This document shows, one piece after another, positions 35 to 11,771 of a stretch of 64,000 bases of DNA; positions within the stretch are counted from its first letter, which is position 1; the number at the start of each line of letters is the position of its first letter. The notes under the pieces were generated by a model, which made no database searches, was not told where the DNA came from, and saw only the letters and a program-made list of their open reading frames with translations. The DNA comes from a phage, in the sequence record NC_129898.1. The stretch is one strand, 5' to 3'. The translations under genes and the position numbers were made by a program.

Positions 35-340
35 TTATTCTACAGAGCGTTTGAACAGAATGTCTGCCTCGGACATGTGTTCAACCTCTTCTTCGATTTT
101 AGCTCGACGTTTTTCAGCCTCATAGCGAATATCGAACTCGGTAGCCACTAGAGATTTGATGAATTTAGGAGAATACAGATGATCCTGCTTCTCAACAAGA
201 ATGATATCCTTGATGGCATCTTTCAGATCTTTAATCTGAAGCTGGAGTTCCACCAGTTCTTCGATTGTTTTGCGAAGGCGATCACGTTCTGCAGTGTCAG
301 AAGGAAGAGAGGTGAACAGTTCAACTTTAGATTTAGCCAT
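35..340 (-). CDS. hypothetical protein (charged, coiled-coil-like)
   Basis: 101-aa ORF in co-oriented dense gene array; no recognisable motif. Confidence 0.5.
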   Translation of the reverse strand: MAKSKVELFTSLPSDTAERDRLRKTIEELVELQLQIKDLKDAIKDIILVEKQDHLYSPKFIKSLVATEFDIRYEAEKRRAKIEEEVEHMSEADILFKRSVE

Positions 341-368: not shown

Positions 369-686
369 TTAACGTTCTACAAAAATACCGTTCAGTTCAA
401 TAACCAGGAATTTCTGGTCTTCACTATCGTCACGAGCCAGCACCTCGCAGACGTAGCGGTCATCTCCGTCATCATCACAGTCAAATACAAGGCTGAGGAC
501 TTTATCATGATAAATCTTCGACACTACTGCCTCGTAAGTATTGCCGATTGTGAATCCAAGATAATCCCCGATGCATTTGACAACAACATGGTCGCCAGCA
601 TTTAAGTCAATCTTCGTCATTACTGTGCTCCTTGGGTGATAATATGGTATGTAAAACTTTAACCAGAGATGTGAATAACGCCCCAA
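369..686 (-). CDS. hypothetical protein
   Basis: 105-aa ORF, co-oriented array. Confidence 0.5.
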   Translation of the reverse strand: MGRYSHLWLKFYIPYYHPRSTVMTKIDLNAGDHVVVKCIGDYLGFTIGNTYEAVVSKIYHDKVLSLVFDCDDDGDDRYVCEVLARDDSEDQKFLVIELNGIFVER

Positions 687-775
687 AACACACAGATAGC
701 GCTAAAACGGATAAGGCCATCATTAAAGCTTCAGTAAAATCAGTCCTTCCTCACCTCTTGTTAGTAACTATACTA

Positions 776-1128: not shown

Positions 1129-1416
1129 TCATAGTGTCTCTAAAATTTCATACCCTTCGGGTCGGAAAACAAGCCACTCAGGTGCTCCATTTGGTCGATA
1201 CGCTTTATACAGAACAACCTGATCTCGGCACATGCACATGGCTACATAGTTTTCATCAACACCTGCCTCCTGCATTGCATCTTCTTCTCCGGCAACAGCC
1301 TTGCTTACAACTTCCTTGGTAGGCAGGTGGGCGATCAGCTCGTCACCATCGTTAATTCCAAAATGACTGAGTTCTCCATTGGTATCTTTAATCTTGATCT
1401 TAACCAAATCTTTCAT
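1129..1416 (-). CDS. hypothetical protein (MK-I/V-K... small protein family)
   Basis: 95-aa ORF; start overlaps upstream stop; acidic C-terminus EGYEILETL. Confidence 0.5.
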   Translation of the reverse strand: MKDLVKIKIKDTNGELSHFGINDGDELIAHLPTKEVVSKAVAGEEDAMQEAGVDENYVAMCMCRDQVVLYKAYRPNGAPEWLVFRPEGYEILETL

Positions 1417-1745
1417 TAGTCTTCCTCCAGGTTCAAAGGTCCTAAGATTTCATATGCTAGATTAGAAGTTACCAGAGGGTCTTCTGCATCTTTAGTATTA
1501 TACCATCCGTGAATAACCAGAGTCCCACTTTGCTTCATGTCTAACTGGAACTGTTCTGCCGTTTCCTCATCCATCTCCAAGATCTCCATGAGGTATTTGA
1601 TGTTAGGAAGGTATGCAGCTGTTACAGTCCCCTCTACCAGGCCTTCAGGCCAACCTACATCCGGATGACAAGTAGGGACCAGAGAGGTCAGCTTGATAGT
1701 GTATGCTTTTTCTGCACGAGCCTTCAGTAACGGATCAATTTTCAT
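1416..1745 (-). CDS. hypothetical protein
   Basis: 109-aa ORF; stop/start coupled to neighbours. Confidence 0.5.
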   Translation of the reverse strand: MKIDPLLKARAEKAYTIKLTSLVPTCHPDVGWPEGLVEGTVTAAYLPNIKYLMEILEMDEETAEQFQLDMKQSGTLVIHGWYNTKDAEDPLVTSNLAYEILGPLNLEED

Positions 1746-2095
1746 TATTCTTCCTCCTCTTCGGTGCCTGCTTCCAGTAGTAAGTTAAGAACATCTTCAG
1801 CAGAAGGTTCGTAGAACTCTTGGCCTTCGTTGTCGATGATGCGATAGTCATCACCCCGAATAATCAGAGGATCGTCATCAAAACCTTCAAGACCTTTAAC
1901 AACGACAACACGGTCGATTGCCATCATTGTAAGAACTTTATCGACATCTTCCTCTGCTACACCATACTGCAGCAGAATGTCTTTGGTAGGAGGGACAGCA
2001 TCCACCACAACACCGTTACCAAAACCTTCCGGAAGTTTAGCTAAAATATCTTCCGGAACCACATTCATATCAAAACCTGTGATCTCTACTTTCAT
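1745..2095 (-). CDS. hypothetical protein (MKV-family, poly-E C-terminus)
   Basis: 116-aa ORF starting MKVEITGF, ending EEEEE. Confidence 0.5.
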   Translation of the reverse strand: MKVEITGFDMNVVPEDILAKLPEGFGNGVVVDAVPPTKDILLQYGVAEEDVDKVLTMMAIDRVVVVKGLEGFDDDPLIIRGDDYRIIDNEGQEFYEPSAEDVLNLLLEAGTEEEEE

Positions 2096-2356
2096 TTACA
2101 GAACCTCTTCGTCAACTACTTCATAAAAATGGCTTGGGATTGCAATGGCGTTCTCGCCTTCACCTAAGAACACTGTCCCACTAACGATTAACATTAGAAG
2201 AACGTCTGCGATACCTTCCTCGGGGACGTTGCCAAAACCTTTAATCAGCTCGTAGGTTGGAAGATTTACCTCTAAGATGTCACCATCTTTGGAGCGGAAA
2301 TCAACACCATCCTGAATCTCTGCCGTTTCAAGGTTTTTCAATTTAATCTTCATCAA
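2096..2356 (-). CDS. hypothetical protein (MK-I/V-K family)
   Basis: 86-aa ORF, MMKIKLKNLE..., C-terminal VVDEEVL. Confidence 0.5.
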   Translation of the reverse strand: MMKIKLKNLETAEIQDGVDFRSKDGDILEVNLPTYELIKGFGNVPEEGIADVLLMLIVSGTVFLGEGENAIAIPSHFYEVVDEEVL

Positions 2357-2432
2357 TCAGTCTCCTGTCTTGTTAAGATGAAGGTATTATTGCACACAGG
2401 GTTGGTGTTGTCAACACCTGTGTGGAATAAAA

Positions 2433-2828
2433 TTACTGAAACAGTGCAGATAAATTACCTTCTGGTGGGAACTTATCTGCCAAGAACGGAGTCAGAACAG
2501 TGGCCTTCTGAAGATCTGGAGTCCACTCGTTGTTCAGAACATCCCAGTAGTACGCAATGTTGCTGTGTGGGTGCCGCATTACGAACTTTTTCCCTTCGTA
2601 GTCAGTTGAAACCTCTACAGAAGAAATAACAACAGAATCTTCAAGAGTTTCTTCATAGAAAGATCCACCCTCGAATTTCCAACGAGATGCAAGAGCTCCT
2701 GCCTTAAACGCTGCAGATAACGGACTGTCGGCAAGAACATACATTTCTTGCACTCTGTCGCTACGATCTTTGCTTCTTACGTTGTATACAGTATCTGAGC
2801 TATACTCAACACGGTATAGACTTACCAT
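2433..2828 (-). CDS. hypothetical protein, paralog of 4644..5042
   Basis: 131 aa; shares H-P-x-S-x-(6)-YW-(5)-W-T-P motif with 4644..5042. Confidence 0.55.
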   Translation of the reverse strand: MVSLYRVEYSSDTVYNVRSKDRSDRVQEMYVLADSPLSAAFKAGALASRWKFEGGSFYEETLEDSVVISSVEVSTDYEGKKFVMRHPHSNIAYYWDVLNNEWTPDLQKATVLTPFLADKFPPEGNLSALFQ

Positions 2829-3187
2829 TACCGCACCTCCTCAATAACTTCCACATCTGAACCTACCACAAATGCAAAAGGGCAGGTTTCATGAAAGACA
2901 TCCGGATCGCCGCCAAGCTTGCTAACTATTTCTCCACCACTAATAAACACAAGCTCACCGATATTCATCAGATTGCTGAAATAGTATCCATAATGATTAA
3001 AGAATGCAGCAGGGTCAGGCAGACTGGTAGCCTCAAGCTCTACATCGGTTGAGATTACTTTCTTATCATACCCTCTGGCCTTTTGAGATGCAAGATCTGC
3101 AGAATCCTCAGGCGACCGGAGATGCACAGGAATTGTTTCACCAATAAAGCGTACTTTCATATTCTCACCCAACAACCATAGCTTCAA
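2828..3187 (-). CDS. hypothetical protein (VEIVE-tail family)
   Basis: 119 aa; contains MKVRFIGE and C-terminal DVEVIEEVR. Confidence 0.5.
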   Translation of the reverse strand: MKLWLLGENMKVRFIGETIPVHLRSPEDSADLASQKARGYDKKVISTDVELEATSLPDPAAFFNHYGYYFSNLMNIGELVFISGGEIVSKLGGDPDVFHETCPFAFVVGSDVEVIEEVR

Positions 3188-3428
3188 AAGGGGTCATAAA
3201 CGAATAAACAGCATTATCATCTGCTTCAGGAAATGCCCCCAAAGACTTCATGTCTGAGCCCTTGACAAATACAAGGTTCTGATCAAAAGCTTCTTGTGGA
3301 TCAATCCGATACATATTTCGTAGGGTATCACTTACCTCCTCATCAAGAGGTGAGTATGCTGTGCACGTTTTTCCGATCAAGCTTTGAGAATCAGGATATC
3401 CACCTGAAGTTTTAAAATAAACAATCAT
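3165..3428 (-). CDS. hypothetical protein
   Basis: 87-aa ORF, co-oriented. Confidence 0.45.
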   Translation of the reverse strand: MIVYFKTSGGYPDSQSLIGKTCTAYSPLDEEVSDTLRNMYRIDPQEAFDQNLVFVKGSDMKSLGAFPEADDNAVYSFMTPFEAMVVG

Positions 3429-3523
3429 ATAGTATCACCTCTAGTAAGAGATTGGGATTCCTTTCCCACAAATAATTACAAACTTTTCTTTTTATTGAGA
3501 GAAGTATGCTAATCCAAGCAGGA

Positions 3524-3793
3524 TTACTCTTCTACAATCTCATACACATCAGGAGTTACAATCAACTCTTCTCCGTTACCCGGTGCAACAAACACCACCA
3601 AGCCTTCAGGTGTGTGCTTTTTAGCCATCTCGATAACATCTTCTCGCAGAGCTGGCTCCATCAGATCAAAGCCTTCACCCAAGGCATCACGAACTACCTT
3701 CATGTAGTCCACTGGTTGTGCTTCAACGATCATGCCTTCAACCAGTCCGCAGTTTTTGTCTTCCAGCTCAGTTTTGAATAATTTAATTTTCAT
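3524..3793 (-). CDS. hypothetical protein (MK-I/V-K family)
   Basis: 89 aa; MKIKLFKTE..., C-terminal DVYEIVEE. Confidence 0.5.
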   Translation of the reverse strand: MKIKLFKTELEDKNCGLVEGMIVEAQPVDYMKVVRDALGEGFDLMEPALREDVIEMAKKHTPEGLVVFVAPGNGEELIVTPDVYEIVEE

Positions 3794-3930
3794 TTAGAGG
3801 TCTCCTCAATTATTTGATATTAATAGCCGTAACCTAACACATTAACTACAACTGCGATTGCAAACATAATTTCAAAGCATGCAATCTCTACATTTGGGAC
3901 TAATTTCTTAATCACGCCCATTGTAGCACC

Positions 3931-4248
3931 TCATTCTCCAAAGTAAATCTTTACTTTGCCTTTCCCTTTACCTTTCTTTCCACCGCATTTAGCCAACTGA
4001 CGTGCTGCAACATCTACCATACGGTCAGTTGCCTCGTAAGCGTCACTGCCTTTAGCTTTGGCAATAACTTCTTTTCCGGAAGTGTCAAAAATGAACGCCA
4101 TGACTTCCTGGTGATCATTTTCAACTTTTACACTCACACGTGCATAGTTGGCAGAGGGGTGCAAACGCTCCAGCTTAGACATTTTGTGGGAAATGAAAGA
4201 CACCATACCTTCAGTGATTTCTACGTTGCCAGTGATTTCAATTTGCAT
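3931..4248 (-). CDS. hpf: ribosome hibernation promoting factor / YfiA-RaiA family homolog
   Basis: N-terminal MQIEITGNVEITEG matches the HPF/S30EA signature (E. coli HPF begins MQLNITGNNVEITEA); KLE, VKVE and RQLxK elements conserved; 105 aa. Confidence 0.8.
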   Translation of the reverse strand: MQIEITGNVEITEGMVSFISHKMSKLERLHPSANYARVSVKVENDHQEVMAFIFDTSGKEVIAKAKGSDAYEATDRMVDVAARQLAKCGGKKGKGKGKVKIYFGE

Positions 4249-4335
4249 AACGTGCTCCTTTTAAGGAAGAGAGAATAACAACCATCTCTCTTTGAAAACA
4301 ATAATACTATAGCTGAAGCGTTGTGTCAACAGTTT

Positions 4336-4626
4336 TTACAACTTATTATCGATAGTATCTAAAATATCTACAGCAAGATCTGCCATTTTTCGAACATACT
4401 CTGCAAACTCAACAGGATCCTTGATCAAAGAATTCACAGGGTCGTACCCTAGAGCGTTCAAAATGGCTGCAGCATCTACAACCTTCTCATCATTTGCGAA
4501 GATCTCTCCGTCAAACTTGTGGGTCCATTTTGAGTCAATCTTGGCAGAGCATGGTTGGTCAATGCTTGTTACACCATCGTCTTTAAACTCTCCTGCGTTA
4601 TCAATATTCAGAACTAAATCCATCAT
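4336..4626 (-). CDS. hypothetical protein
   Basis: 96-aa ORF. Confidence 0.5.
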   Translation of the reverse strand: MMDLVLNIDNAGEFKDDGVTSIDQPCSAKIDSKWTHKFDGEIFANDEKVVDAAAILNALGYDPVNSLIKDPVEFAEYVRKMADLAVDILDTIDNKL

Positions 4627-4643
4627 AGTGGCACCTCACTGTT

Positions 4644-5042
4644 TCAGTCTAGCTTTTCTTCAACAACCCCGTAGCTCGGGGCAGAGTCAAGAGCTTTTTG
4701 GTTTAAAAGTGGTGTAGCAGAATCTGCAAACGGTGTCCAAGTTTTTGTTCTGGCATTCCAGTAATGCTTCACTCTGGAATCTGGATGCACTATAACAAAA
4801 ACTTTTTCACTTGTCAACACATTAATTTCTTCTACACCCTTGCTGATAATTTCTCCGTCATAGCCCCCAGTCTGGTATCCTTCGTACCAGGTTCTTGCAT
4901 AGGCATAGCCAGCCTGCCAGCATGCAGCCTCCTCCGAGGTGGAGACTACGTAGAAGTCTTTCTCAAATTCTGGGATACGTCCTTGCTTTACGCTCCAAGC
5001 TCCGCGAATTTTCATTGTTACTTTGAAAAGCTTGTTCTTCAT
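4644..5042 (-). CDS. hypothetical protein, paralog of 2433..2828
   Basis: 132 aa; HPDSRVKHYWNARTKTWTP motif shared with 2433..2828. Confidence 0.55.
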   Translation of the reverse strand: MKNKLFKVTMKIRGAWSVKQGRIPEFEKDFYVVSTSEEAACWQAGYAYARTWYEGYQTGGYDGEIISKGVEEINVLTSEKVFVIVHPDSRVKHYWNARTKTWTPFADSATPLLNQKALDSAPSYGVVEEKLD

Positions 5043-5043
5043 A

Positions 5044-5298
5044 CTACCGCTCTACAATCTCTACGTCTGTTCCTACACCGAAGGCATAGTAATGTTCTTC
5101 CCCAAAGTAATACTTGGGGACACCAGCTTTGATCAGGTCTAACCCGCGAATAAATACCACACCGTGTGATACAGTGGAATGCTTCTGACGCACAGGATCG
5201 TTGTCAGGCAACCATTCAAAGTACACCGCAGGTACAACCTTCCCTTTAAGAAAGGATTGCCCCAAGTAGACGTTAGAATCAAGAATTTTGACCTTCAT
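5044..5298 (-). CDS. hypothetical protein (MKVK / VEIVE family)
   Basis: 84 aa; MKVKILDSNVYLGQ..., C-terminal DVEIVER. Confidence 0.55.
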   Translation of the reverse strand: MKVKILDSNVYLGQSFLKGKVVPAVYFEWLPDNDPVRQKHSTVSHGVVFIRGLDLIKAGVPKYYFGEEHYYAFGVGTDVEIVER

Positions 5299-5512
5299 GA
5301 TCGTCCTCCACTATCTCCACATCCTCCCCTAGGGCAAAGTTGTAGGTCCACTGACTGTCAAAGCAGTCCTGAGATGCTCCAGCGGCAATAAGATCTGCAC
5401 CCTTTATTTTTAAAAGGTCAGGATAATCTTCGTTAGGGACAGCGGTAAACACTTTACCCACTAAAGGCTCCTGACCAATATAGAAGTTTGAATCTAAAAC
5501 TTTAACTTTCAT
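5279..5512 (-). CDS. hypothetical protein (MKVK / VEIVE family)
   Basis: 77 aa; MKVKVLDSNFYIGQ..., EDVEIVEDD; clear paralog of 5044..5298. Confidence 0.55.
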   Translation of the reverse strand: MKVKVLDSNFYIGQEPLVGKVFTAVPNEDYPDLLKIKGADLIAAGASQDCFDSQWTYNFALGEDVEIVEDDHEGQNS

Positions 5513-5796
5513 CAGCGGTCTCCATCGGGCGGTTGTGGAACGTAAACACTGTTACGAATCTCGTCAGCAGTGTAGTAACAAGTTTTCCCCTCTCTGTCCC
5601 TGGCAGCAATGTATTCAGCTATACCAATAAGTGCCATAGCCTTGGTGGCGTATCTCTTAAGCTCGTTAGCTCCCCAGCAAAATCTCTGCCAAAACGGTAT
5701 GAAACCGAATAGGTACACCTTCTGTTTCACTATCCAATAAGTTCCTTTACAGATCACTTTAAACTCTGCAGCACTGTTACTGACACCATTGCTCAT
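5512..5796 (-). CDS. hypothetical protein
   Basis: 94-aa ORF. Confidence 0.5.
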   Translation of the reverse strand: MSNGVSNSAAEFKVICKGTYWIVKQKVYLFGFIPFWQRFCWGANELKRYATKAMALIGIAEYIAARDREGKTCYYTADEIRNSVYVPQPPDGDR

Positions 5797-5808
5797 TATC
5801 TTCTCCTT

Positions 5809-6093
5809 TTATTTTTCTGGGTTTGGCAGATATTGCACATTGGCAGGAGGAACACCGGATAGCTCCCAAACAACCATAGTGCTGTACCCTGGCACACTTC
5901 TAACATTTAAAAGAGTAGGAGCACCAACACATTTAAACTTCCTTTTCCCAAATCCGTTCTCCATCATAACCCAGTATCCTGTATCCTGATCACCTGGAAT
6001 TTGTGTTCCATCATCGTCCACCCAGCGGACGGTCCATTTCGATACAGCAACGGCTCGGTATTTAAACTTTTTAAACCACTCAAACAGTTTCAT
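5809..6093 (-). CDS. hypothetical protein
   Basis: 94-aa ORF. Confidence 0.5.
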   Translation of the reverse strand: MKLFEWFKKFKYRAVAVSKWTVRWVDDDGTQIPGDQDTGYWVMMENGFGKRKFKCVGAPTLLNVRSVPGYSTMVVWELSGVPPANVQYLPNPEK

Positions 6094-6096
6094 AAT

Positions 6097-6186
6097 TCAG
6101 CCTCGCATAGCCATAATAACTATAAACAGACAAATAATGAATCCGAATGCCACGCCACCCATAAACGTTAATATTGATGCGACCAT
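6097..6186 (-). CDS. small hydrophobic peptide (29 aa, single predicted TM helix)
   Basis: ATG at 6186-6184 preceded by GAGGA; translation MVASILTFMGGVAFGFIICLFIVIMAMRG; below the 60-aa ORF cutoff. Confidence 0.3.
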   Translation of the reverse strand: MVASILTFMGGVAFGFIICLFIVIMAMRG

Positions 6187-6188
6187 AA

Positions 6189-6374
6189 TCAATCATCCTC
6201 GTTTGGCAGCTCTTCCATTTTGACATACCGGAAAGTGTTGCCGTAATAGTTGATCCATGACATCAGCTCGCTTTCTTGCTCTTCCTCTGGGATTGACTCT
6301 CGTATGCTGACAAGTTTTAAGAAAATCCAATCACAATCTGCACCCATCCTACCAGACAGGCAATAGTGCTTCAT
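6189..6374 (-). CDS. hypothetical protein
   Basis: 61-aa ORF. Confidence 0.4.
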   Translation of the reverse strand: MKHYCLSGRMGADCDWIFLKLVSIRESIPEEEQESELMSWINYYGNTFRYVKMEELPNEDD

Positions 6375-6392
6375 AGAACCCTCCCGACCGGT

Positions 6393-6587
6393 TTAGAATA
6401 TTGCTTCTTCCATTGCACCTGAGAGCAATAAAGAGGTAATATGGCTAACATTCATCTCAGACTCTACTTCCTCCCCTTTGAAAGGTTCGCGGCAGAATAG
6501 GACTGTTTCAGGACTTTTACTTCGAACAATATAATACAAATCATTCAAAGTGTTGTAGTAATAAGTGTTAAAACGTAAGTTTTTCAT
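6393..6587 (-). CDS. hypothetical protein
   Basis: 64-aa ORF. Confidence 0.4.
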   Translation of the reverse strand: MKNLRFNTYYYNTLNDLYYIVRSKSPETVLFCREPFKGEEVESEMNVSHITSLLLSGAMEEAIF

Positions 6588-6871
6588 TTTCTAGTCCCCT
6601 TCTTAGATTTTTGTGAAGAAACGCTTTCTGCAATACGAGACAGGCGTTCTTCTGAAGCTTTACCTACCCCAGGTTTCTTGAGCGGGTTATCTTTATGACC
6701 GCAATCCAATTGGATGCTAGATACCTCCCCAACCTTGTAAGTCAATTCTAGCAAAAGGTTGTCGTCCTTGTCAAATGTTTTTACGATAAATTTTTTATCG
6801 TTCTCCTGAACTTCATATCTGGTACCTGCAGTATACAGCATGGTGCCATCAGCATAGGATATCCAGATCAT
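6584..6871 (-). CDS. hypothetical protein
   Basis: 95-aa ORF; overlapping stop/start with neighbours. Confidence 0.5.
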   Translation of the reverse strand: MIWISYADGTMLYTAGTRYEVQENDKKFIVKTFDKDDNLLLELTYKVGEVSSIQLDCGHKDNPLKKPGVGKASEERLSRIAESVSSQKSKKGTRK

Positions 6872-7215
6872 TGAGCCTCCTTCTGCTGCAACAGCATTAA
6901 CTCTTTGTTGGAAATCTTTACTGCTGTCTTTATTGTTCCATCTTCACGGAACCACGACCAGAATTCTACAGTGTCACCACTATCAAGCAAGGCATGACCA
7001 TGGTAAAAATCCTTGTCCTTAGACAGTTTCTCATCTATATCTGCATCGACACATTCGTGATCCATAGCATTTTGCCTGAATGCATCGGTTATGCCAATGC
7101 ATGCCTTGCTCTCAAGACTGGCATATCCGATATCTTTTAATTCAGTTTCCCAAACCCAGAACCCTATAAAAGCCACAACAGCTACCCACATTAATATCGA
7201 TTTAATCTTTGACAT
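6868..7215 (-). CDS. hypothetical signal-anchored / secreted protein
   Basis: 115 aa; N-terminal hydrophobic segment ILMWVAVVAFIGFWVW. Confidence 0.5.
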   Translation of the reverse strand: MSKIKSILMWVAVVAFIGFWVWETELKDIGYASLESKACIGITDAFRQNAMDHECVDADIDEKLSKDKDFYHGHALLDSGDTVEFWSWFREDGTIKTAVKISNKELMLLQQKEAQ

Positions 7216-7275
7216 TCTCTCTACCTCTTTCTTAATTTGTTTAATTATGGCACATCCTTTGTGCCTTGTTGCACA

Positions 7276-7746
7276 CTACTTAGACAACAGTTCAAAATAG
7301 TGCAAAATTAACAGAAGTTGAATTACGCCTAGCACAACGGCAAGTATGTTAATCTTAGAATCAAAAAACTTCTTAACTTTTACTCTAAAAGGTTCCTTAA
7401 TGTCCTTTACGATCCTATCTATAGATGACCTCATATCTCTGATTACCATCCTGAACATTAAAGACGGATGCTCCCCCATCTCTGTAACGGAATCGAAAAC
7501 ATACTCTCTTCGGTCATAAGGGCCGCCAGCTCTGCGTATTAACCTCTCCACAGAGACCTCGAACGTCACACCTGTAACGTAATCATCTATAACAAGTCGT
7601 GACGGGTCTTTACCTTTACTATCAAGAGGTATCAAAGTTATCTTTCCAGATTTTGTTAAAATTTCTCCTTTTTCAAGCAAGGTGTACCAATGCTCTCTAC
7701 CAAGATTGTTGAGGCACGTTTTTACATATTTAACAAACATCGTCAC
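7276..7746 (-). CDS. hypothetical protein with C-terminal TM anchor
   Basis: 156 aa; C-terminal ILAVVLGVIQLLLILHYF. Confidence 0.5.
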   Translation of the reverse strand: MTMFVKYVKTCLNNLGREHWYTLLEKGEILTKSGKITLIPLDSKGKDPSRLVIDDYVTGVTFEVSVERLIRRAGGPYDRREYVFDSVTEMGEHPSLMFRMVIRDMRSSIDRIVKDIKEPFRVKVKKFFDSKINILAVVLGVIQLLLILHYFELLSK

Positions 7747-7928
7747 CCCTTATCGCACGTCTGATATAACCATTCTATGAAATCTTGATACCACTCTCCC
7801 TCTGAGCGCTCCGTAGGCCAATAATCTTCCCCCTCTCTTGCATTAAAATCTGAGTATTCGACTTTCCACTCCTTTACCAGCTCGTGGAGAAGGTTTTCAG
7901 CCTGTTCTAAGGATTTATTTTTTGTCAT
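7743..7928 (-). CDS. hypothetical protein
   Basis: Track ORF 7743..7946 begins at TTG; first ATG at 7928 (MTKNKSLEQ) with AAGGGG RBS. Confidence 0.45.
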   Translation of the reverse strand: MTKNKSLEQAENLLHELVKEWKVEYSDFNAREGEDYWPTERSEGEWYQDFIEWLYQTCDKG

Positions 7929-8034
7929 TACTGTCCCCTTTTTCAAGATAATTATACATCAGTGCCGCGCCACCCAAAATGGCTACTAGCAGTAATACTC
8001 CAGAGAGCATTTCAATAAACATGGCTTGAAACAT
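7915..8034 (-). CDS. small hydrophobic peptide (39 aa)
   Basis: MFQAMFIEMLSGVLLLVAILGGAALMYNYLEKGDSNDKK; overlaps start of 7743..7928; below ORF cutoff. Confidence 0.25.
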   Translation of the reverse strand: MFQAMFIEMLSGVLLLVAILGGAALMYNYLEKGDSNDKK

Positions 8035-8148
8035 TAGAAGGCCCCCTCTAATTTCACGCACCATTTTAAATACATACTCTTTTCCCATGAAGATGCTAAA
8101 CTAAGGTCTGTATAGAATGCAATCTCCCTAAGAACAGCATAAACAGTT

Positions 8149-8385
8149 TCAGGCACTGTTACCATTCTTATCTGCCTCCTTCATTTTCCTGACGGTTTTA
8201 CAGTGATCTACCAAGCACATAACCACAATGAAGAGAACAACAGGCCAAAAAGGTGCGGCAGTGATTATAGTTATAAAGTCGTCAAACTTAATTTTTCTAC
8301 AAGATATGATGCAAAGAGTTGCTAAAACAACCATTGTCAGAAAGGTCAATGCGCAATACCAAACCAGCACAGTGTCTATAGTCAT
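8149..8385 (-). CDS. hypothetical membrane protein
   Basis: 78 aa; two hydrophobic helices. Confidence 0.45.
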   Translation of the reverse strand: MTIDTVLVWYCALTFLTMVVLATLCIISCRKIKFDDFITIITAAPFWPVVLFIVVMCLVDHCKTVRKMKEADKNGNSA

Positions 8386-8386
8386 A

Positions 8387-8914
8387 CTATATCTCCTGGT
8401 TCAAACTGTTAAGAAAGGATACCCTGTCTTCGCTATTTTTCTCTGTGATGTACCCTCCAAACATGGAAAGAATCACATGCTTCAAGTAATCTTTTTCTGG
8501 GTCGCTTAGATGATTGCGTGGCTTTATTTCCACATCATGGTAGTCATACAATCCACAATCATGATACCCCCAGTATCGACACACCTCAATACTGATCGGG
8601 AGTTTTTTGTCACACGAAACTTTCCAACGGGTTACGTTGTTACCAGGAGATAAATCCTCTCCCACCTTCACGAATGACAAATCATAATTCATAAACTTTT
8701 CGTACAGTTTAAGTACAAAACCTTCTACCTGTGGAGAAACACCAGCCACTAGCTGGGCGTATCTATATTTACTTTCAATAATTTTTCGGCGCTTTGCTGT
8801 AAGGTTTATTGCAGCAATTTGACTCTCCGAGTATCTCCAAGGCTTATATATAAATGCTTTCGGGTCTTTATCGCCATAAAAATCTTTCCAATCAACTAGC
8901 AGCATACCTGTCAC
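8387..8914 (-). CDS. hypothetical protein
   Basis: 175-aa ORF. Confidence 0.5.
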   Translation of the reverse strand: MTGMLLVDWKDFYGDKDPKAFIYKPWRYSESQIAAINLTAKRRKIIESKYRYAQLVAGVSPQVEGFVLKLYEKFMNYDLSFVKVGEDLSPGNNVTRWKVSCDKKLPISIEVCRYWGYHDCGLYDYHDVEIKPRNHLSDPEKDYLKHVILSMFGGYITEKNSEDRVSFLNSLNQEI

Positions 8915-9144
8915 TCCTCCACAACTTCAAGGCCTTTGCCGCCTCGTTCTGGTAGATTACTTAAAGACAGGTAATACGTATAGTCAGGAGAGATCCTACC
9001 AGACTCTGCACCTGCAGATAGTAAATCTTTTCCCTTAACCATGACAACATTATCGTTTGCAGATAGTCGTTTTGCTTCCACAATTTTACCAACGCAGTCA
9101 ACCAAGGAAGGGTACCCTAAATCTGTAAGAAATTTAACTTTCAT
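8911..9144 (-). CDS. hypothetical protein (MKVK family)
   Basis: 77 aa; MKVKFLTDLGYPSL..., C-terminal LEVVEE. Confidence 0.5.
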   Translation of the reverse strand: MKVKFLTDLGYPSLVDCVGKIVEAKRLSANDNVVMVKGKDLLSAGAESGRISPDYTYYLSLSNLPERGGKGLEVVEE

Positions 9145-9183
9145 GCTACCTCCTACTTCTACCGTCCCTAGTAAGATAAATTA

Positions 9184-9582
9184 TTACTGAACAAAGCGCG
9201 GAGCTGGGAAGGATAACTCTTCTAAAGAGAAGATTTCATTCCCCACAATCCATGTTGCAGGATCATCCGGGTTGACTGGATAGATGATCATCACCTCGTC
9301 AGTGTTACATACCCGCTTTTTACCTGTGGAGTCATCAGCAACCAGCATGCGCGGTTCTTCAGAAATGCACAGGTAGCCTCCTCGGCCCACTGTTCCTTCC
9401 ACAGGGTCTTGTCCTTTGATCACGATGATTATCTTCTCTCCTGAGGCGATATTACCTTGCACACTCACCGTTTGACCAACCTTGGATGTGCCAATCTTAG
9501 TGACTTCGAACATTACATCCCGAATTACCGTTGCATAATCGCCAGACACTTTCTTACCTTCTTTAGTGATCTCAATCTTCAT
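9184..9582 (-). CDS. hypothetical protein
   Basis: 132 aa, MKIEITKEG... Confidence 0.5.
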   Translation of the reverse strand: MKIEITKEGKKVSGDYATVIRDVMFEVTKIGTSKVGQTVSVQGNIASGEKIIIVIKGQDPVEGTVGRGGYLCISEEPRMLVADDSTGKKRVCNTDEVMIIYPVNPDDPATWIVGNEIFSLEELSFPAPRFVQ

Positions 9583-9855: not shown

Positions 9856-10140
9856 CTACCAAGTCACTGTCAAGTAGGCAACCGTGTTATTTTTCTCCGG
9901 AGAGATGCCAACAACATCCACCTGCAGACCTCCTGCCCTCAAATCTCCAACGATGTGTGGAAAGTAGTCTGAGAGGTGTGATGGGAGATTTATCGAAAAT
10001 CCACATCCCAGAAAGCCTGCTAACGCTTTATTTTGTATATCCCCTACAATCGCATCATAAATAGAGTTAAGCTCGTCAGGAAGCGTTACAGGACGTTTTA
10101 GAGCTAACTGGTGCAACTTGTCCTTAGCACTCATTTTCAT
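9856..10140 (-). CDS. hypothetical protein
   Basis: Start moved to ATG at 10140 (MKMSAKDK) forming an ATGA overlap with the methyltransferase stop. Confidence 0.4.
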   Translation of the reverse strand: MKMSAKDKLHQLALKRPVTLPDELNSIYDAIVGDIQNKALAGFLGCGFSINLPSHLSDYFPHIVGDLRAGGLQVDVVGISPEKNNTVAYLTVTW

Positions 10141-10670
10141 TTCAAGTCTGCCTCTGGTGGTGCCAACCACATAAATGGCGGCAAGTCTAGACGGTTTTTC
10201 TTGTCCCATACAAAATATGCATATGCCTGCCCATCCGTTCTACCATTGGATTGGAATGACGGACGCTTAGATATTGTGATCACAGTGGTAGGTGCATTAT
10301 CAAGCCACCATTCAAATCTGGCCTTGCTTTCCAGAAAATTAAGACGCAAAAGCATAATAACTACATCGGCATCTTTCAACGCCTTGTCTACAAACTCACG
10401 AGCCAAGCTGTACGGTGGGTTGGTGATAATACAGTCAACATGGTTGTATTCTGTATTCAGATAGTCAACACCTTCTTGGATTTCTCCCCATGCAGATCCT
10501 AACGGCATACGGGAGTAGAACACACCTGAGGCACTATTCCTGCAAGGCTCTAAGTAAGTCCAGTCTTCTGGGAACGGAATAAGGTCATACAGCCCTTCTG
10601 CACACCACTCCGGTGTCACATACTCATCGTAAGCGTTACGTTGTTCATCAGGTTTTCTAGCACAAGTCAT
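10137..10670 (-). CDS. DNA N6-adenine methyltransferase (NPPY motif)
   Basis: DCIITNPPYSL catalytic motif; 177 aa; no adjacent restriction enzyme. Confidence 0.65.
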   Translation of the reverse strand: MTCARKPDEQRNAYDEYVTPEWCAEGLYDLIPFPEDWTYLEPCRNSASGVFYSRMPLGSAWGEIQEGVDYLNTEYNHVDCIITNPPYSLAREFVDKALKDADVVIMLLRLNFLESKARFEWWLDNAPTTVITISKRPSFQSNGRTDGQAYAYFVWDKKNRLDLPPFMWLAPPEADLK

Positions 10671-10721: not shown

Positions 10722-11771
10722 TTAAGCTTCTTCGACAATTCCTGCGCCCAGGATTTTTTCATTGAGCTCTTTTGCTGTTTTAATAATATTGTCCACCAGA
10801 CGCTTACGAGTCTTATCTTTCACCTGAACTTCTTCTCCGCCGTTCAGGGTGGTTTTCAATTGGGACAAAATGTCCTGAAGCTCTACCACAGAGAATCGCT
10901 GCAGATCTTCCGAGGTAATCTCACCCAGTGCAATCTTAACGGTCTCACCACTCTCCATCTGCAGATTCAGGAACACAGTGTGAACATCACCTTTCATACC
11001 ATTTTCTTTTGCAGACTCAACAGCATGAACCAGCTCGTCCAAAGATGTGCATTGGTGAATCTCTGGCAGGCCTGCTTCGCCTAGCACACCTTCTTCATCA
11101 CTTTTTGCCAAAAGCTTTTTCGGTTTCTGTCCATTCTGAATGCGCTGAATGTTTTCATCGTCCAGAATAATAGCACCAGTTCGAGATGCCAGCTCTTCTC
11201 CATCTAACCACACTTCGCCGCCAGCTGTGATGGATGCGATCTCATCTTCTGTTAGCACTCCACCGTAGTATTTTTCGATCAGGCGTTCAAAACGTTTCTT
11301 CCAGTAGTTGACCTGGGTATTCATGTTCACACCGTTACCATAGGTGCCACCTTGATAATAGTGGAACATAAATTCTGTGTCCGGAGCCACAGTTCGTTCT
11401 TTGCAACCCATCCATAAGATTGTTCCTGCTGAACAGCACATCCCTTCAGCGTGTACAACAACGCTTGCCTGAGACTCGCGGAATGCCTGCAAATACGCCA
11501 TAGCAATGTGAACGCAACCACCAGGGCTGTTAATGATTACACGGATACTTTCTTCTGGCTGAGCCATACGAATCGTCTGTAGACGAGACATATGATCTTG
11601 CAGGTCGTCCAAATCGTCAATATAAAGAACGTGGTCAACAACAGGTGTTGGGTAGCTGTATGTTTCCATAATACCACCCGGCATACCAAACATTTTGTTA
11701 CTCATAGGTTCGAAACCGTTCTGTTTTTCTTTCATGCCGTGTACCATGGTGCTGCGAGGTGTTAAATTCAT
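10722..11771 (-). CDS. ClpP/S14-like serine peptidase with ~150-aa C-terminal extension
   Basis: INSPGGCVHIAMAYL and GMCCSAGT (ClpP-type oxyanion/Ser motifs); acidic, helix-rich C-terminal half. Confidence 0.5.
   Translation of the reverse strand: MNLTPRSTMVHGMKEKQNGFEPMSNKMFGMPGGIMETYSYPTPVVDHVLYIDDLDDLQDHMSRLQTIRMAQPEESIRVIINSPGGCVHIAMAYLQAFRESQASVVVHAEGMCCSAGTILWMGCKERTVAPDTEFMFHYYQGGTYGNGVNMNTQVNYWKKRFERLIEKYYGGVLTEDEIASITAGGEVWLDGEELASRTGAIILDDENIQRIQNGQKPKKLLAKSDEEGVLGEAGLPEIHQCTSLDELVHAVESAKENGMKGDVHTVFLNLQMESGETVKIALGEITSEDLQRFSVVELQDILSQLKTTLNGGEEVQVKDKTRKRLVDNIIKTAKELNEKILGAGIVEEA

What the first reader, a model, noticed from the sequence alone, without database searches (positions are those of the whole stretch)
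1129..9582. Expanded family of small MK-(V/I)-K ... (D/E)VEIVE proteins in the early region
At least eight ORFs (1129..1416, 1745..2095, 2096..2356, 2828..3187, 3524..3793, 5044..5298, 5279..5512, 8911..9144) start with MK(V/I)K(V/I/F)L or a close variant and end in an acidic V-E-I-V-E-like tail. 5044..5298 and 5279..5512 are tandem and clearly paralogous. A tandemly amplified, diverging family of small proteins in an early block is typical of host-takeover or anti-defence arsenals under diversifying selection.
Basis: seen in the sequence. Interest (0 to 1): 0.5.

Follow-up and report, generated by a model that had tools for sequence, protein, structure and literature searches.

The report
Two families of SH3-like phage proteins
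Ten small genes in this rV5-like E. coli phage form two old paralog families predicted to share an SH3-like barrel fold; lab E. coli infection does not need them, but published transposon data show two of them, plus a neighbouring gene, are needed on a clinical strain, so they are good candidates for host-specific counter-defence or host-takeover factors.

Summary
The window is a Vequintavirus (rV5/FV3-like coliphage).

- **Family 1:** 8911-9144, 5279-5512, 5044-5298, 3165-3428, 2828-3160. It has ~70-aa relatives in many unrelated phages and prophages.
- **Family 2:** 3524-3793, 2096-2353, 1745-2095, 1416-1745, 1129-1416. It was found only in Vequintavirus-like genomes.

**Fold.** AlphaFold models (pLDDT 90 and 85) give both families the same five-strand SH3-like barrel. 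The sequence link between them is only suggestive (hhalign P about 0.001).

**Termini.** The MK(V/I)K start and (V/Y)E(I/V)(V/I)E end are the first and last strands. The extra Glu residues largely double as Shine-Dalgarno sites for the overlapping next gene.

**Age and selection.** The duplications are old: a relative with 34-84% amino-acid identity keeps all ten genes in the same order. Selection is purifying (dN/dS 0.10-0.16), not diversifying.

**Function.** No member has a known function, Pfam domain or catalytic motif, and most are acidic. A published phage Tn-seq (Bas54) classes seven of the ten as non-essential on K-12. Insertions in the orthologues of 3165-3428, 2828-3160 and the adjacent 2433-2828 vanish on uropathogenic strain CFE311.

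**Most likely role:** small protein-binding host-specific accessory factors.

The parts
8911..9144 (-). Family 1 member H (77 aa, MKVKFL...GLEVVEE); orthologue bas54_0166
   Evidence: phrog_5009 at 8.5e-36. BLASTP to 5279-5512 gives 1.7e-6. 44% identical to an E. coli prophage protein. Non-essential on K-12 and unchanged on CFE311.
5279..5512 (-). Family 1 member G (77 aa); the protein modelled; orthologue bas54_0159
5044..5298 (-). Family 1 member F (84 aa), tandem to G and overlapping it by 20 nt; orthologue bas54_0158
   Evidence: 45% identity to G, E 4.5e-16. Only 78-81% identical among close relatives, with dS about 1, which suggests allele replacement. Natural G/F hybrid genes exist.
3165..3428 (-).
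   Evidence: Family 1 profile E 8.5e-6 before inclusion. Weak phrog_5009 match, 1.8e-4. Tn insertions fall from 142 to 0 on CFE311.
2828..3160 (-). Family 1 member D (110 aa, start MKVRF at 3160), with a long insert between strands 1-2 and 2-3; orthologue bas54_0151
   Evidence: Profile E 1.8e-5. phrog_13661 aligned from residue 10 of the longer ORF. Tn insertions fall from 71 to 0 on CFE311.
3524..3793 (-). Family 2 member E (89 aa, MKIKLF...YEIVEE); the protein modelled; orthologue bas54_0153
2096..2353 (-). Family 2 member C (85 aa); orthologue bas54_0149
   Evidence: Leave-one-out E 2.9e-3, top hit. The DEEVL tail carries the SD for 1745-2095.
1745..2095 (-). Family 2 member B (116 aa, acidic C-terminal extension); orthologue bas54_0148
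   Evidence: Leave-one-out E 1.2e-5. The EEEEE tail encodes GAGGAGGA, the SD for 1416-1745.
1416..1745 (-).
   Evidence: Leave-one-out E 1.3e-3, top hit. The LEED tail encodes GGAGGA, the SD for 1129-1416.
1129..1416 (-). Family 2 member A (95 aa); orthologue bas54_0146
   Evidence: Leave-one-out E 1.6e-6. The YEILETL tail has no adjacent downstream gene (gap 89 nt).
2433..2828 (-). Linked gene P (131 aa, phrog_7379), start overlapping the stop of D; orthologue bas54_0150
   Evidence: Paralogue of 4644-5042, BLASTP 2.6e-9. phrog_7379. Tn insertions fall from 108 to 0 on CFE311.
4644..5042 (-). Linked gene P2 (132 aa, phrog_7379), directly after F; orthologue bas54_0157
   Evidence: phrog_7379 at 5.8e-74. 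log2FC -2.14, adjusted p 0 on CFE311. Absent from the divergent relative L004.
2386..2414 (-). Sigma-70-like promoter match (TTGACA-17-AATAAT, TG extended) in the gap upstream of C
   Evidence: 11 of 12 consensus match. This is a consensus match only and is not tested.

Best explanation
**What it is.** The block holds ten genes for small (77-116 aa), mostly acidic, non-enzymatic proteins. They form two sequence families predicted to share one five-stranded SH3-like beta-barrel. The conserved MK(V/I)K(V/I/F)L start is strand 1 and the (V/Y)E(I/V)(V/I)E end is strand 5.

**How the paralogues differ.** Differences sit mainly in the loop after strand 1 and in an insertion site after strand 2. That site is short in G and H, 20-40 residues long in F, Y and D, and a three-helix insert in family 2. 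In SH3 domains these two loops (RT and n-Src) form the ligand-binding face.

**History.** The copies arose by old local duplications. Each has since been kept as a separate orthologue under purifying selection, which points to different jobs rather than one fast-evolving job.

**Proposed mechanism (inferred, not shown).** Each paralogue binds a different host protein, or a phage protein, through its variable loop face and blocks or redirects it. They act as accessory factors that matter only in particular hosts.

**What is shown.** For Y, D and the coupled downstream gene P, loss by transposon insertion is tolerated on E. coli K-12 but abolishes growth on the clinical strain CFE311.

**The acidic tail.** The extra C-terminal Glu residues are largely a by-product of tight gene packing. 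GAG/GAA codons in the tail form the ribosome-binding site of the next, overlapping gene.
For: **Families.** Pairwise and profile statistics support both families.

**Fold.**
- AF2 pLDDT is 90.5 for G and 85.3 for E. Strand order is the same: E2-5, E21-27, insert, then three more strands.
- hhalign of family 1 against family 2 gives P 0.0011, colinear. None of 126 control comparisons with 63 unrelated small proteins reached this; the best control was 0.0026.

**No enzyme signature.** There is no Pfam, NCBIfam, PADLOC or PDB sequence match. The invariant residues are Gly or hydrophobic.

**Acidic.** Median pI is 4.4, against 6.7 for other small proteins in the window.

**Old and constrained.**
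- 1:1 syntenic orthologues are present in L004 at 34-84% identity.
- dN/dS is 0.16 for family 1 and 0.10 for family 2.

**Accessory genomic slots elsewhere.**
- Its own array of at least five copies next to dam in Krischvirus KFS-EC, and two to three copies in Proteus phage RS51pmB.
- The early-left operon of a Morganella prophage, between RecT/YqaJ, two methyltransferases and integrase.
- The Q-to-holin moron region of E. coli prophages.

**Experiment** (bioRxiv 10.1101/2025.11.20.689424, Extended Data Table 8), with orthology checked at 80-99% identity.
- On K-12, seven of the ten (A, X, B, C, F, G, H) and both P genes are non-essential. D, Y and E are rated 'Intermediate'.
- On CFE311, P, D and Y counts fall from 108, 71 and 142 to 0. 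P2 falls by log2FC -2.14.
- Insertions upstream in the same putative operon (HPF, bas54_0154) are not depleted, which argues against strong polarity.
- The authors also argue against widespread polar effects.

**Tail as SD.** and the RBS features in the Mangalyan record.
Against: - No binding partner is known and no member has been studied individually. The preprint did not follow up bas54_0150-0152; only bas54_0063 and bas54_0140 were knocked out.
- Y, D and P are translationally coupled. The loss of Y and D insertions on CFE311 could therefore be a polar effect on P alone.
- Seven of the ten members show no phenotype on either host tested.
- D, Y and E are 'Intermediate' even on K-12, which hints at a general rather than host-specific contribution.
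- The sequence link between the two families is below the usual significance level (hhalign probability 5-21%).
- The host factor in CFE311 could be something other than a defence system.
- Expression timing is unknown.
Confidence: 0.6

Rival explanations
1. This is a single tandemly amplified family, evolving fast under diversifying selection as an anti-defence arsenal expressed early.
For: - Shared termini exceed chance.
- Both families are predicted to have the same fold.
- F and C are the least conserved genes among close relatives, 78-89% identity.
- A G/F hybrid shows ongoing recombination.
- There is a conditional phenotype on CFE311.
Against: - No significant sequence similarity joins the two groups.
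- dN/dS is 0.10-0.16 and no gene exceeds 0.19.
- All ten orthologues are retained in a very distant relative.
- The low identity of F comes with dS about 1. That is allele replacement by recombination, not positive selection.
- Early timing is not shown.
Confidence: 0.15
2. Only the P-family genes (2433-2828, 4644-5042) matter on the clinical host. The SH3-like genes upstream appear essential there only because transposon insertions in them stop expression of the coupled downstream P gene.
For: - Y-D has a 4-nt gap and the D stop overlaps the P start, with the SD for P lying inside the D tail.
- P2, which has no coupled family-1 requirement, is also depleted while G and F are not.
- E, further upstream, shows a non-significant -2.78.
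Against: - Insertions in HPF and bas54_0154, upstream in the same putative operon, are not depleted.
- The authors report that insertions upstream of essential genes are usually tolerated.
- Depletion of Y and D is as complete as that of P, with zero reads.
Confidence: 0.2
3. The proteins work inside the phage programme rather than against host immunity. For example, they could be KOW/L24-like factors acting on the ribosome or RNA polymerase, or small chaperones.
For: - The genes flank a phage ribosome-hibernation-factor homologue and lie near a T4 DsbA-like regulator.
- D, Y and E have intermediate fitness on K-12.
Against: - Acidic pI of 4.0-4.6 for most members argues against RNA or DNA binding.
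- There is no KOW or ribosomal-protein Pfam match.
- Seven members are fully dispensable on K-12.
- The strong phenotype is host-specific.
- Relatives sit in moron or accessory slots of prophages.
Confidence: 0.12
4. The shared termini are coincidence. MK starts are common in well-translated phage genes, and Glu-rich ends are forced by embedded Shine-Dalgarno sites, so there is no family.
For: - 22 of 108 proteins start with MK.
- Outside the families, genes coupled to the next gene have 1.46 acidic residues in their last six, against 0.76 for uncoupled genes.
- Five family tails contain the SD of the next gene.
Against: - Within-family similarity spans the whole length and is significant.
- E and A keep the YEI(V/L)E tail with no gene within 89-95 nt.
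- Remote homologues from unrelated genomes keep the same last strand.
- Confident models exist for both families.
Confidence: 0.03

Closest known systems
PHROG families 5009 / 13367 / 7345 / 8603 (phage proteins of unknown function)
   Same: F, G and H match phrog_5009 over their full length (E 1e-27 to 1e-39). Remote ~70-aa homologues match both 5009 and 13367. They share the MKVKLL...GxELIxxGA...YxF...E(V/I)(V/I)EE pattern.
   Different: These PHROGs carry no function. Y, D and all family 2 members sit in separate singleton-like PHROGs (13920, 13661, 11868, 12359, 12155, 12457, 12794). The paralogy described here is therefore not recorded there.
SH3-like small beta-barrels (SH3 domains, Spt5/NusG KOW, PsaE, retroviral integrase C-terminal domain)
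Gp54 of phage Bas11 (PDB 9axb; small beta-barrel of unknown function that triggers CapRelSJ46; PMC11578894)
   Different: It is six-stranded with an unusual topology. There is no sequence relationship. It is known as an immune trigger, not as a factor needed on a host.
Characterised small phage host-takeover or counter-defence proteins and paralog arrays (e.g. T7 Ocr and Gp2, T4 IPI/Arn/Dmd, anti-CRISPRs; my own knowledge)
   Same: Small, acidic and non-enzymatic. Encoded in blocks of unknown genes, dispensable in laboratory hosts and conditionally required in others.
   Different: No homology or fold match to any of them was found. The target is unknown, and these genes show purifying selection with 1:1 orthology rather than rapid turnover.
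bas54_0140 and bas54_0063 (MoxR) of phage Bas54, required against defence system DS-28 (bioRxiv 10.1101/2025.11.20.689424)
   Same: Same phage genus and the same CFE311 screen, with comparable depletion (-5.5 and -7.2, against -6.2 to -7.2 for Y, D and P). The bas54_0140 orthologue lies about 0.4 kb beyond the left end of the window, in the same transcription unit.
   Different: They are not members of either family. Their link to DS-28 was confirmed with knockouts, whereas Y, D and P were not followed up.

Membership tests
phrog_5009 (family 1 core) | Full-length match to the PHROG profile | tested here: met
   F 4.2e-27, G 8e-39, H 8.5e-36. Y matches only weakly (1.8e-4) and D not at all.
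Family 1 as defined here | Significant match to a profile built without the tested sequence | tested here: met
   A profile of F, G and H finds Y at 8.5e-6 and D at 1.8e-5. The next best hit is at 0.51. No other ORF in the window or in FV3 matches.
Family 2 as defined here | Leave-one-out profile retrieves each member as the top hit | tested here: met
   All 5 of 5 were top hits, E 1.6e-6 to 2.9e-3. The next best hits are at 0.09 or worse.
One superfamily joining families 1 and 2 | Significant profile-profile similarity | tested here: inconclusive
   hhalign P is 0.0011-0.007, probability 5-21%. This is better than all 126 control comparisons but below the usual thresholds.
One superfamily joining families 1 and 2 | Same fold and strand topology | tested here: met
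Canonical SH3 domain (Pfam SH3_1 and relatives) | Match to an SH3 sequence profile | tested here: not met
   No Pfam family at E <= 1 for family 1, and only sub-threshold unrelated hits for family 2.
KOW / NusG-Spt5 | KOW sequence motif and Pfam match | tested here: not met
Bas11 Gp54-like barrels | Sequence homology to 9axb; six-strand topology | tested here: not met
   Profiles of both families do not find 9axb at E <= 10. The models have five strands.
Known anti-phage defence proteins (PADLOC) | Match to a defence-system profile | tested here: not met
   No hits at E <= 0.01 for all ten proteins.
Phage counter-defence / host-range accessory genes (functional class) | Dispensable on a permissive host and required on a particular host | tested here: met
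   Taken from published Tn-seq data, not from my own experiment. It is met for the Y and D orthologues (and P), not met for A, X, B, C, F, G and H on the one clinical strain readable, and not significant for E.
Phage counter-defence / host-range accessory genes (functional class) | Identified host target or defence system that is neutralised | not testable with these tools
   No partner is known. The preprint tested only the bas54_0063 and bas54_0140 knockouts.
Genes under diversifying selection | dN/dS near or above 1 | tested here: not met
   Per-gene values are 0.02-0.19. Pooled values are 0.16 and 0.10. Site-specific tests were not done.

The most novel reading that the evidence does not exclude
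Family 1 would be a widespread, so far undescribed scaffold that phages of many kinds use to make host-specific inhibitors. Carriers include Vequintavirus, T4-like Krischvirus, Proteus, Aeromonas and Pseudomonas phages and lambdoid prophages. In each case the scaffold is a minimal SH3-like barrel whose two variable loops are re-tooled to bind different host immune or housekeeping proteins, and it is multiplied into arrays when a phage needs several specificities. In Vequintavirus, pairs of these barrels would work with a P-family protein as a three-gene module (Y-D-P and G-F-P2). That module would neutralise an unidentified defence of uropathogenic E. coli CFE311.
Probability: 0.3. Interest if true: 0.7.

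Novelty: new member of a known kind. Interest (0 to 1): 0.5.

Why it matters
rV5-like phages are used in E. coli O157 typing and are phage-therapy candidates, yet about two thirds of their genes have no assigned function.

This analysis groups ten 'hypothetical' genes under one predicted fold. It separates real homology from packing artefacts in their termini. It also links two of the genes, and their coupled neighbour, to an unexploited result in a public transposon screen: strict requirement on a uropathogenic strain.

That yields a short, testable list of host-range or counter-defence candidates (3165-3428, 2828-3160, 2433-2828). It also gives a family profile that finds relatives in many other phages and prophages.

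If the barrel is a general binding scaffold, the paralogues would be probes for host factors that limit phage growth in clinical strains.

Tried and rejected
- **Curated and sequence libraries gave nothing.** Pfam, NCBIfam, PADLOC and PDB sequence searches returned no usable match for any of the ten proteins. Neither did Pfam on remote homologues and tandem-domain fusions. P0101 and P0123 from the representative search are repetitive proteins and were treated as spurious.\n- **Y and D as bridges.** I tested whether Y and D, which have inserts at the same site as family 2, link the two families by profile comparison. This is a local hairpin match inside an unrelated protein.\n- **Other Vequintavirinae genera.** Seunavirus 4MG and EspYZU15 and Mydovirus VIK251 have no member of either family within 14 kb of ClpP.\n- **En-bloc duplication of a 'two barrels + P' module.** This cannot be shown. 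G and F are each other's closest relatives, and P2 is missing in L004.\n- **Literature.** The rV5 genome paper mentions no paralog families. The O177 phage 'proteomics' paper is in silico only.\n- **CFE303 Tn-seq comparison.** It could not be read. Both stored sheets are the CFE311 table.\n- **Promoter and terminator scan.** Totals are not above shuffled expectation: 23 against 20.8 and 8 against 6.8.

Full report
**Context.** The first 10 kb of the window is 92-97% identical to rV5-like coliphages (Vequintavirus: YP-6, FV3, JES2013). Genes in 1-36,000 are on the minus strand. In the rV5 genome paper this is the transcription unit 'genes 82-163'. It starts with nucleotide-metabolism genes and ends, after our block, at a gene-free region. 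All genes in the block are annotated 'hypothetical' in every record examined.

**Checking the observation.**
- All eight ORFs exist, on the minus strand.
- Two have over-long TTG starts. The real starts are the ATG at 2353 and the ATG at 3160.
- Among 108 called proteins, 9 start MK[VI][KERD] and 10 carry [VILY][ED][VIL][VIL] near the C-terminus. Seven have both, against 0.83 expected, and all seven are family members.

**Two families, not one.**
- All-against-all BLASTP gives F-G 4.5e-16, G-H 1.7e-6, D-G 1e-3 and Y-H 0.015.
- The other four listed ORFs (A 1129, B 1745, C 2096, E 3524) do not match that profile.
- Together with X (1416-1745, also unlisted) they form a second family. In five leave-one-out tests the omitted member was always the top hit among 108 proteins, E 1.6e-6 to 2.9e-3.
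- No other ORF in the window (532 ORFs) or in the rest of the FV3 genome matches either profile. The complement is 5 + 5.

**Are the two families related?**
- *Sequence.* hhalign gives P 0.007 with shallow alignments and 0.0011 with deeper ones, at 5-21% probability. The alignment is colinear: strand 1 with strand 1, GxVxxA with GxIxxA, and so on.
- *Null test.* I compared both family profiles with 63 unrelated small proteins of the window. None of the 126 comparisons reached 0.0011; the best was 0.0026 and the next 0.025.
- *Structure.* AlphaFold2 gives confident models for G (pLDDT 90.5) and E (85.3). Both have strand 1 at residues 2-5 and strand 2 at about 21-27, followed by a variable segment and then three further strands.
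- *Conclusion.* Both families are SH3-like barrels and probably one very diverged superfamily. The sequence link is not proven.
- *Insertion site.* The insertions of F, Y and D in family 1 and the three-helix insert of family 2 lie at the same place, after strand 2.

**The termini.**
- MK(V/I)K(V/I/F)L is strand 1 and (V/Y)E(I/V)(V/I)E is strand 5.
- The additional acidic residues are largely explained by gene packing. The tails of X (LEED), B (EEEEE), C (DEEVL), D (IEEVR), G (VEIVEDD) and H (VVEE) contain GGAGG-like sequences 5-12 nt before the start of the next, overlapping or abutting gene.
- The Mangalyan record annotates ribosome-binding sites at exactly these places.
- Outside the families, coupled genes also have twice as many acidic residues in their last six positions as uncoupled genes: 1.46 against 0.76.
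- E and A keep the YEI(V/L)E strand with no gene within about 90 nt. Remote homologues keep it too.

**Distribution.**
- Family 2 was found only in Vequintavirus-like genomes.
- A profile search of 1.84 billion representative proteins found 41 family 1 relatives at E <= 1e-3. Most are stand-alone ~70-aa proteins with the pattern MKVKLLxxGGY...VGKVVxA...GxELIxxGA...YxF...E(V/I)(V/I)EE. A few have two or three tandem copies.
- These relatives fall in PHROGs 5009, 13367, 7345 and 8603, all of unknown function, and have no Pfam domain.
- tblastn finds them in Proteus, Aeromonas, Pseudomonas, Pantoea, Morganella, Klebsiella, Citrobacter and Iodobacter phages and in T4-like Krischvirus. BFVD structure matches are all uncharacterised phage proteins.
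- Krischvirus KFS-EC has its own array of at least five copies next to dam. Proteus phage RS51pmB has two or three copies.
- In a Morganella prophage the gene lies in the early-left operon between RecT/YqaJ, two methyltransferases and integrase.
- In E. coli lambdoid prophages an H-like copy (44% identical to H) lies between antiterminator Q and the holin.
- Other Vequintavirinae genera (Seunavirus, Mydovirus) have none near ClpP.

**Age and selection.**
- A metagenomic relative (L004) whose proteins are 34-84% identical keeps syntenic 1:1 orthologues of all ten genes.
- Nei-Gojobori dN/dS against FV3, JES2013, ECML-10 and Mangalyan is 0.16 (family 1), 0.10 (family 2), 0.06 (the P pair) and 0.16 (17 neighbours). 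No family gene exceeds 0.19.
- F is only 78-81% identical among close relatives, but with dS about 1. That indicates exchange of alleles rather than positive selection.
- Some natural genomes carry one 70-aa G/F hybrid in place of the G and F pair. This is direct evidence of unequal recombination between the tandem copies.

**Function.**
- There is no catalytic signature. Conserved positions are Gly or hydrophobic, plus Tyr11, Tyr57 and Phe59.
- Median pI is 4.4, against 6.7 for other small proteins.
- The most informative evidence is external. HIDEN-SEQ, a transposon-insertion screen of phages, was applied to Bas54 (phage MaxBurger, a Vequintavirus).
- I confirmed orthology by BLASTP: A-X-B-C = bas54_0146-0149, P = 0150, D = 0151, Y = 0152, E = 0153, P2 = 0157, F = 0158, G = 0159, H = 0166, at 80-99% identity.
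- On K-12, A, X, B, C, F, G, H, P and P2 are 'Non-essential'. D, Y and E are 'Intermediate', with 69-73% of TA sites hit.
- In the K-12 versus uropathogenic CFE311 comparison, mean counts fall as follows:
  - P: 108 to 0.0
  - D: 71 to 0.0
  - Y: 142 to 0.0
  - These are log2FC -6.8, -6.2 and -7.2, adjusted p 0.
- P2 falls by -2.14 (adjusted p 0) and E by -2.78 (not significant). A, X, B, C, F, G and H do not change.
- Insertions in the HPF gene and in bas54_0154, upstream in the same putative operon, are not depleted. The authors argue that polar effects are uncommon.
- The preprint's text does not discuss these three genes. Only bas54_0063 and bas54_0140 were knocked out.
- The bas54_0140 orthologue, shown there to be needed against defence system DS-28, lies just beyond the left end of the window in the same unit.

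**Interpretation.** The best-supported reading is that these are small protein-binding barrels that act as host-specific accessory factors. Y-D-P is a module required on at least one clinical host.
- *Shown:* the families, the predicted fold, their age, the purifying selection, dispensability on K-12 and conditional requirement on CFE311.
- *Inferred:* that they bind proteins through the variable loops, that the CFE311 requirement reflects a defence system, and that the silent paralogues have analogous roles on other hosts.
- *Main caveat:* possible polarity of Y and D insertions on P.

**Verdict.** In kind, this is another set of small phage accessory proteins. The specific families are uncharacterised, and the link to a conditional-essentiality phenotype makes them worth testing.

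Noticed in passing
window 2433-2828 and 4644-5042 (minus strand): This is a second paralog pair (131 and 132 aa, phrog_7379, BLASTP 2.6e-9). Each copy lies directly after two family 1 genes, giving the orders Y-D-P and G-F-P2. P is conditionally essential on CFE311 and P2 partly so. P2 is absent from the divergent relative L004. No Pfam or PDB match.
   Followed up: partly
L019 3001-3213 and L020 3001-3213 (Logan contigs); corresponds to window 5044-5512: Some natural Vequintavirus genomes carry a single 70-aa hybrid gene (P0015) in place of the G+F pair. Its N-terminal half is G and its C-terminal half is F. This is unequal recombination between tandem paralogues.
   Followed up: yes
window 5044-6587: This is a mosaic hot spot. 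F, 5512-5796, 5809-6093 and 6393-6587 are only 64-81% identical to otherwise 92-97% identical phages, with dS 0.8-1.9. That suggests allele replacement by recombination. Bas54 lacks several genes between 5809 and 8149.
   Followed up: partly
window 3931-4248 (minus strand): A phage-encoded ribosome hibernation factor / RaiA homologue (Pfam Ribosomal_S30AE, 1.9e-12) sits in the middle of the array. It is non-essential in the Bas54 Tn-seq.
   Followed up: no
L002 445-3828 (Krischvirus KFS-EC, NC_055757): A T4-like phage has its own tandem array of at least five family 1-like ORFs next to its Dam methyltransferase. This is an independent expansion of the same scaffold.
   Followed up: partly
L014/L015 8001-8228 (E. 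coli prophages) and L012 8001-8219 (Morganella morganii chromosome): Family 1 homologues occur in temperate phages. An H-like copy lies between antiterminator Q and the holin. Another lies in the early-left operon between RecT/YqaJ, C5 and Dam methyltransferases, NinX and integrase.
   Followed up: partly
protein P0084 (657-bp ENA contig): This is a chimeric 98-aa protein. Its N-terminal 55 residues match Pfam DUF7399, and they are fused to the C-terminal half of family 2 member X. It could be an assembly artefact or a real recombinant.
   Followed up: no
window 35-340 (minus strand): A T4 DsbA-like transcriptional regulator (phrog_639) is 99-100% conserved across relatives (dN/dS 0.01). It is by far the most constrained gene in the block.
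   Followed up: no
window 10137-10670 and 10722-11771 (minus strand): A DNA adenine methyltransferase and a ClpP-like protease with a C-terminal extension of about 150 residues lie immediately upstream of the block. Family 1 genes lie within about 3 kb of a methyltransferase in three unrelated contexts: this window, KFS-EC and the Morganella prophage.
   Followed up: no
just outside the window, left of position 1 (FV3 103145-106594; Bas54 92785-96509): The orthologue of bas54_0140, shown in the preprint to be needed against defence system DS-28, lies about 0.4 kb beyond the window. Beyond it is a 2-2.5 kb gene-free region between the convergent units. That region took no transposon insertions in Bas54. 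No tRNA was found in the FV3 stretch containing it.
   Followed up: partly
window 607-747 and 3820-3921 (minus strand): These very small ORFs (46 and 33 aa) are annotated in FV3, JES2013 and Bas54. They fell below my ORF cut-off.
   Followed up: no
supplementary file 9 of bioRxiv 10.1101/2025.11.20.689424: As stored, both resampling sheets (labelled K-12 vs CFE303 and K-12 vs CFE311) contain the same CFE311 table. The CFE303 result for these genes could not be read.
   Followed up: no
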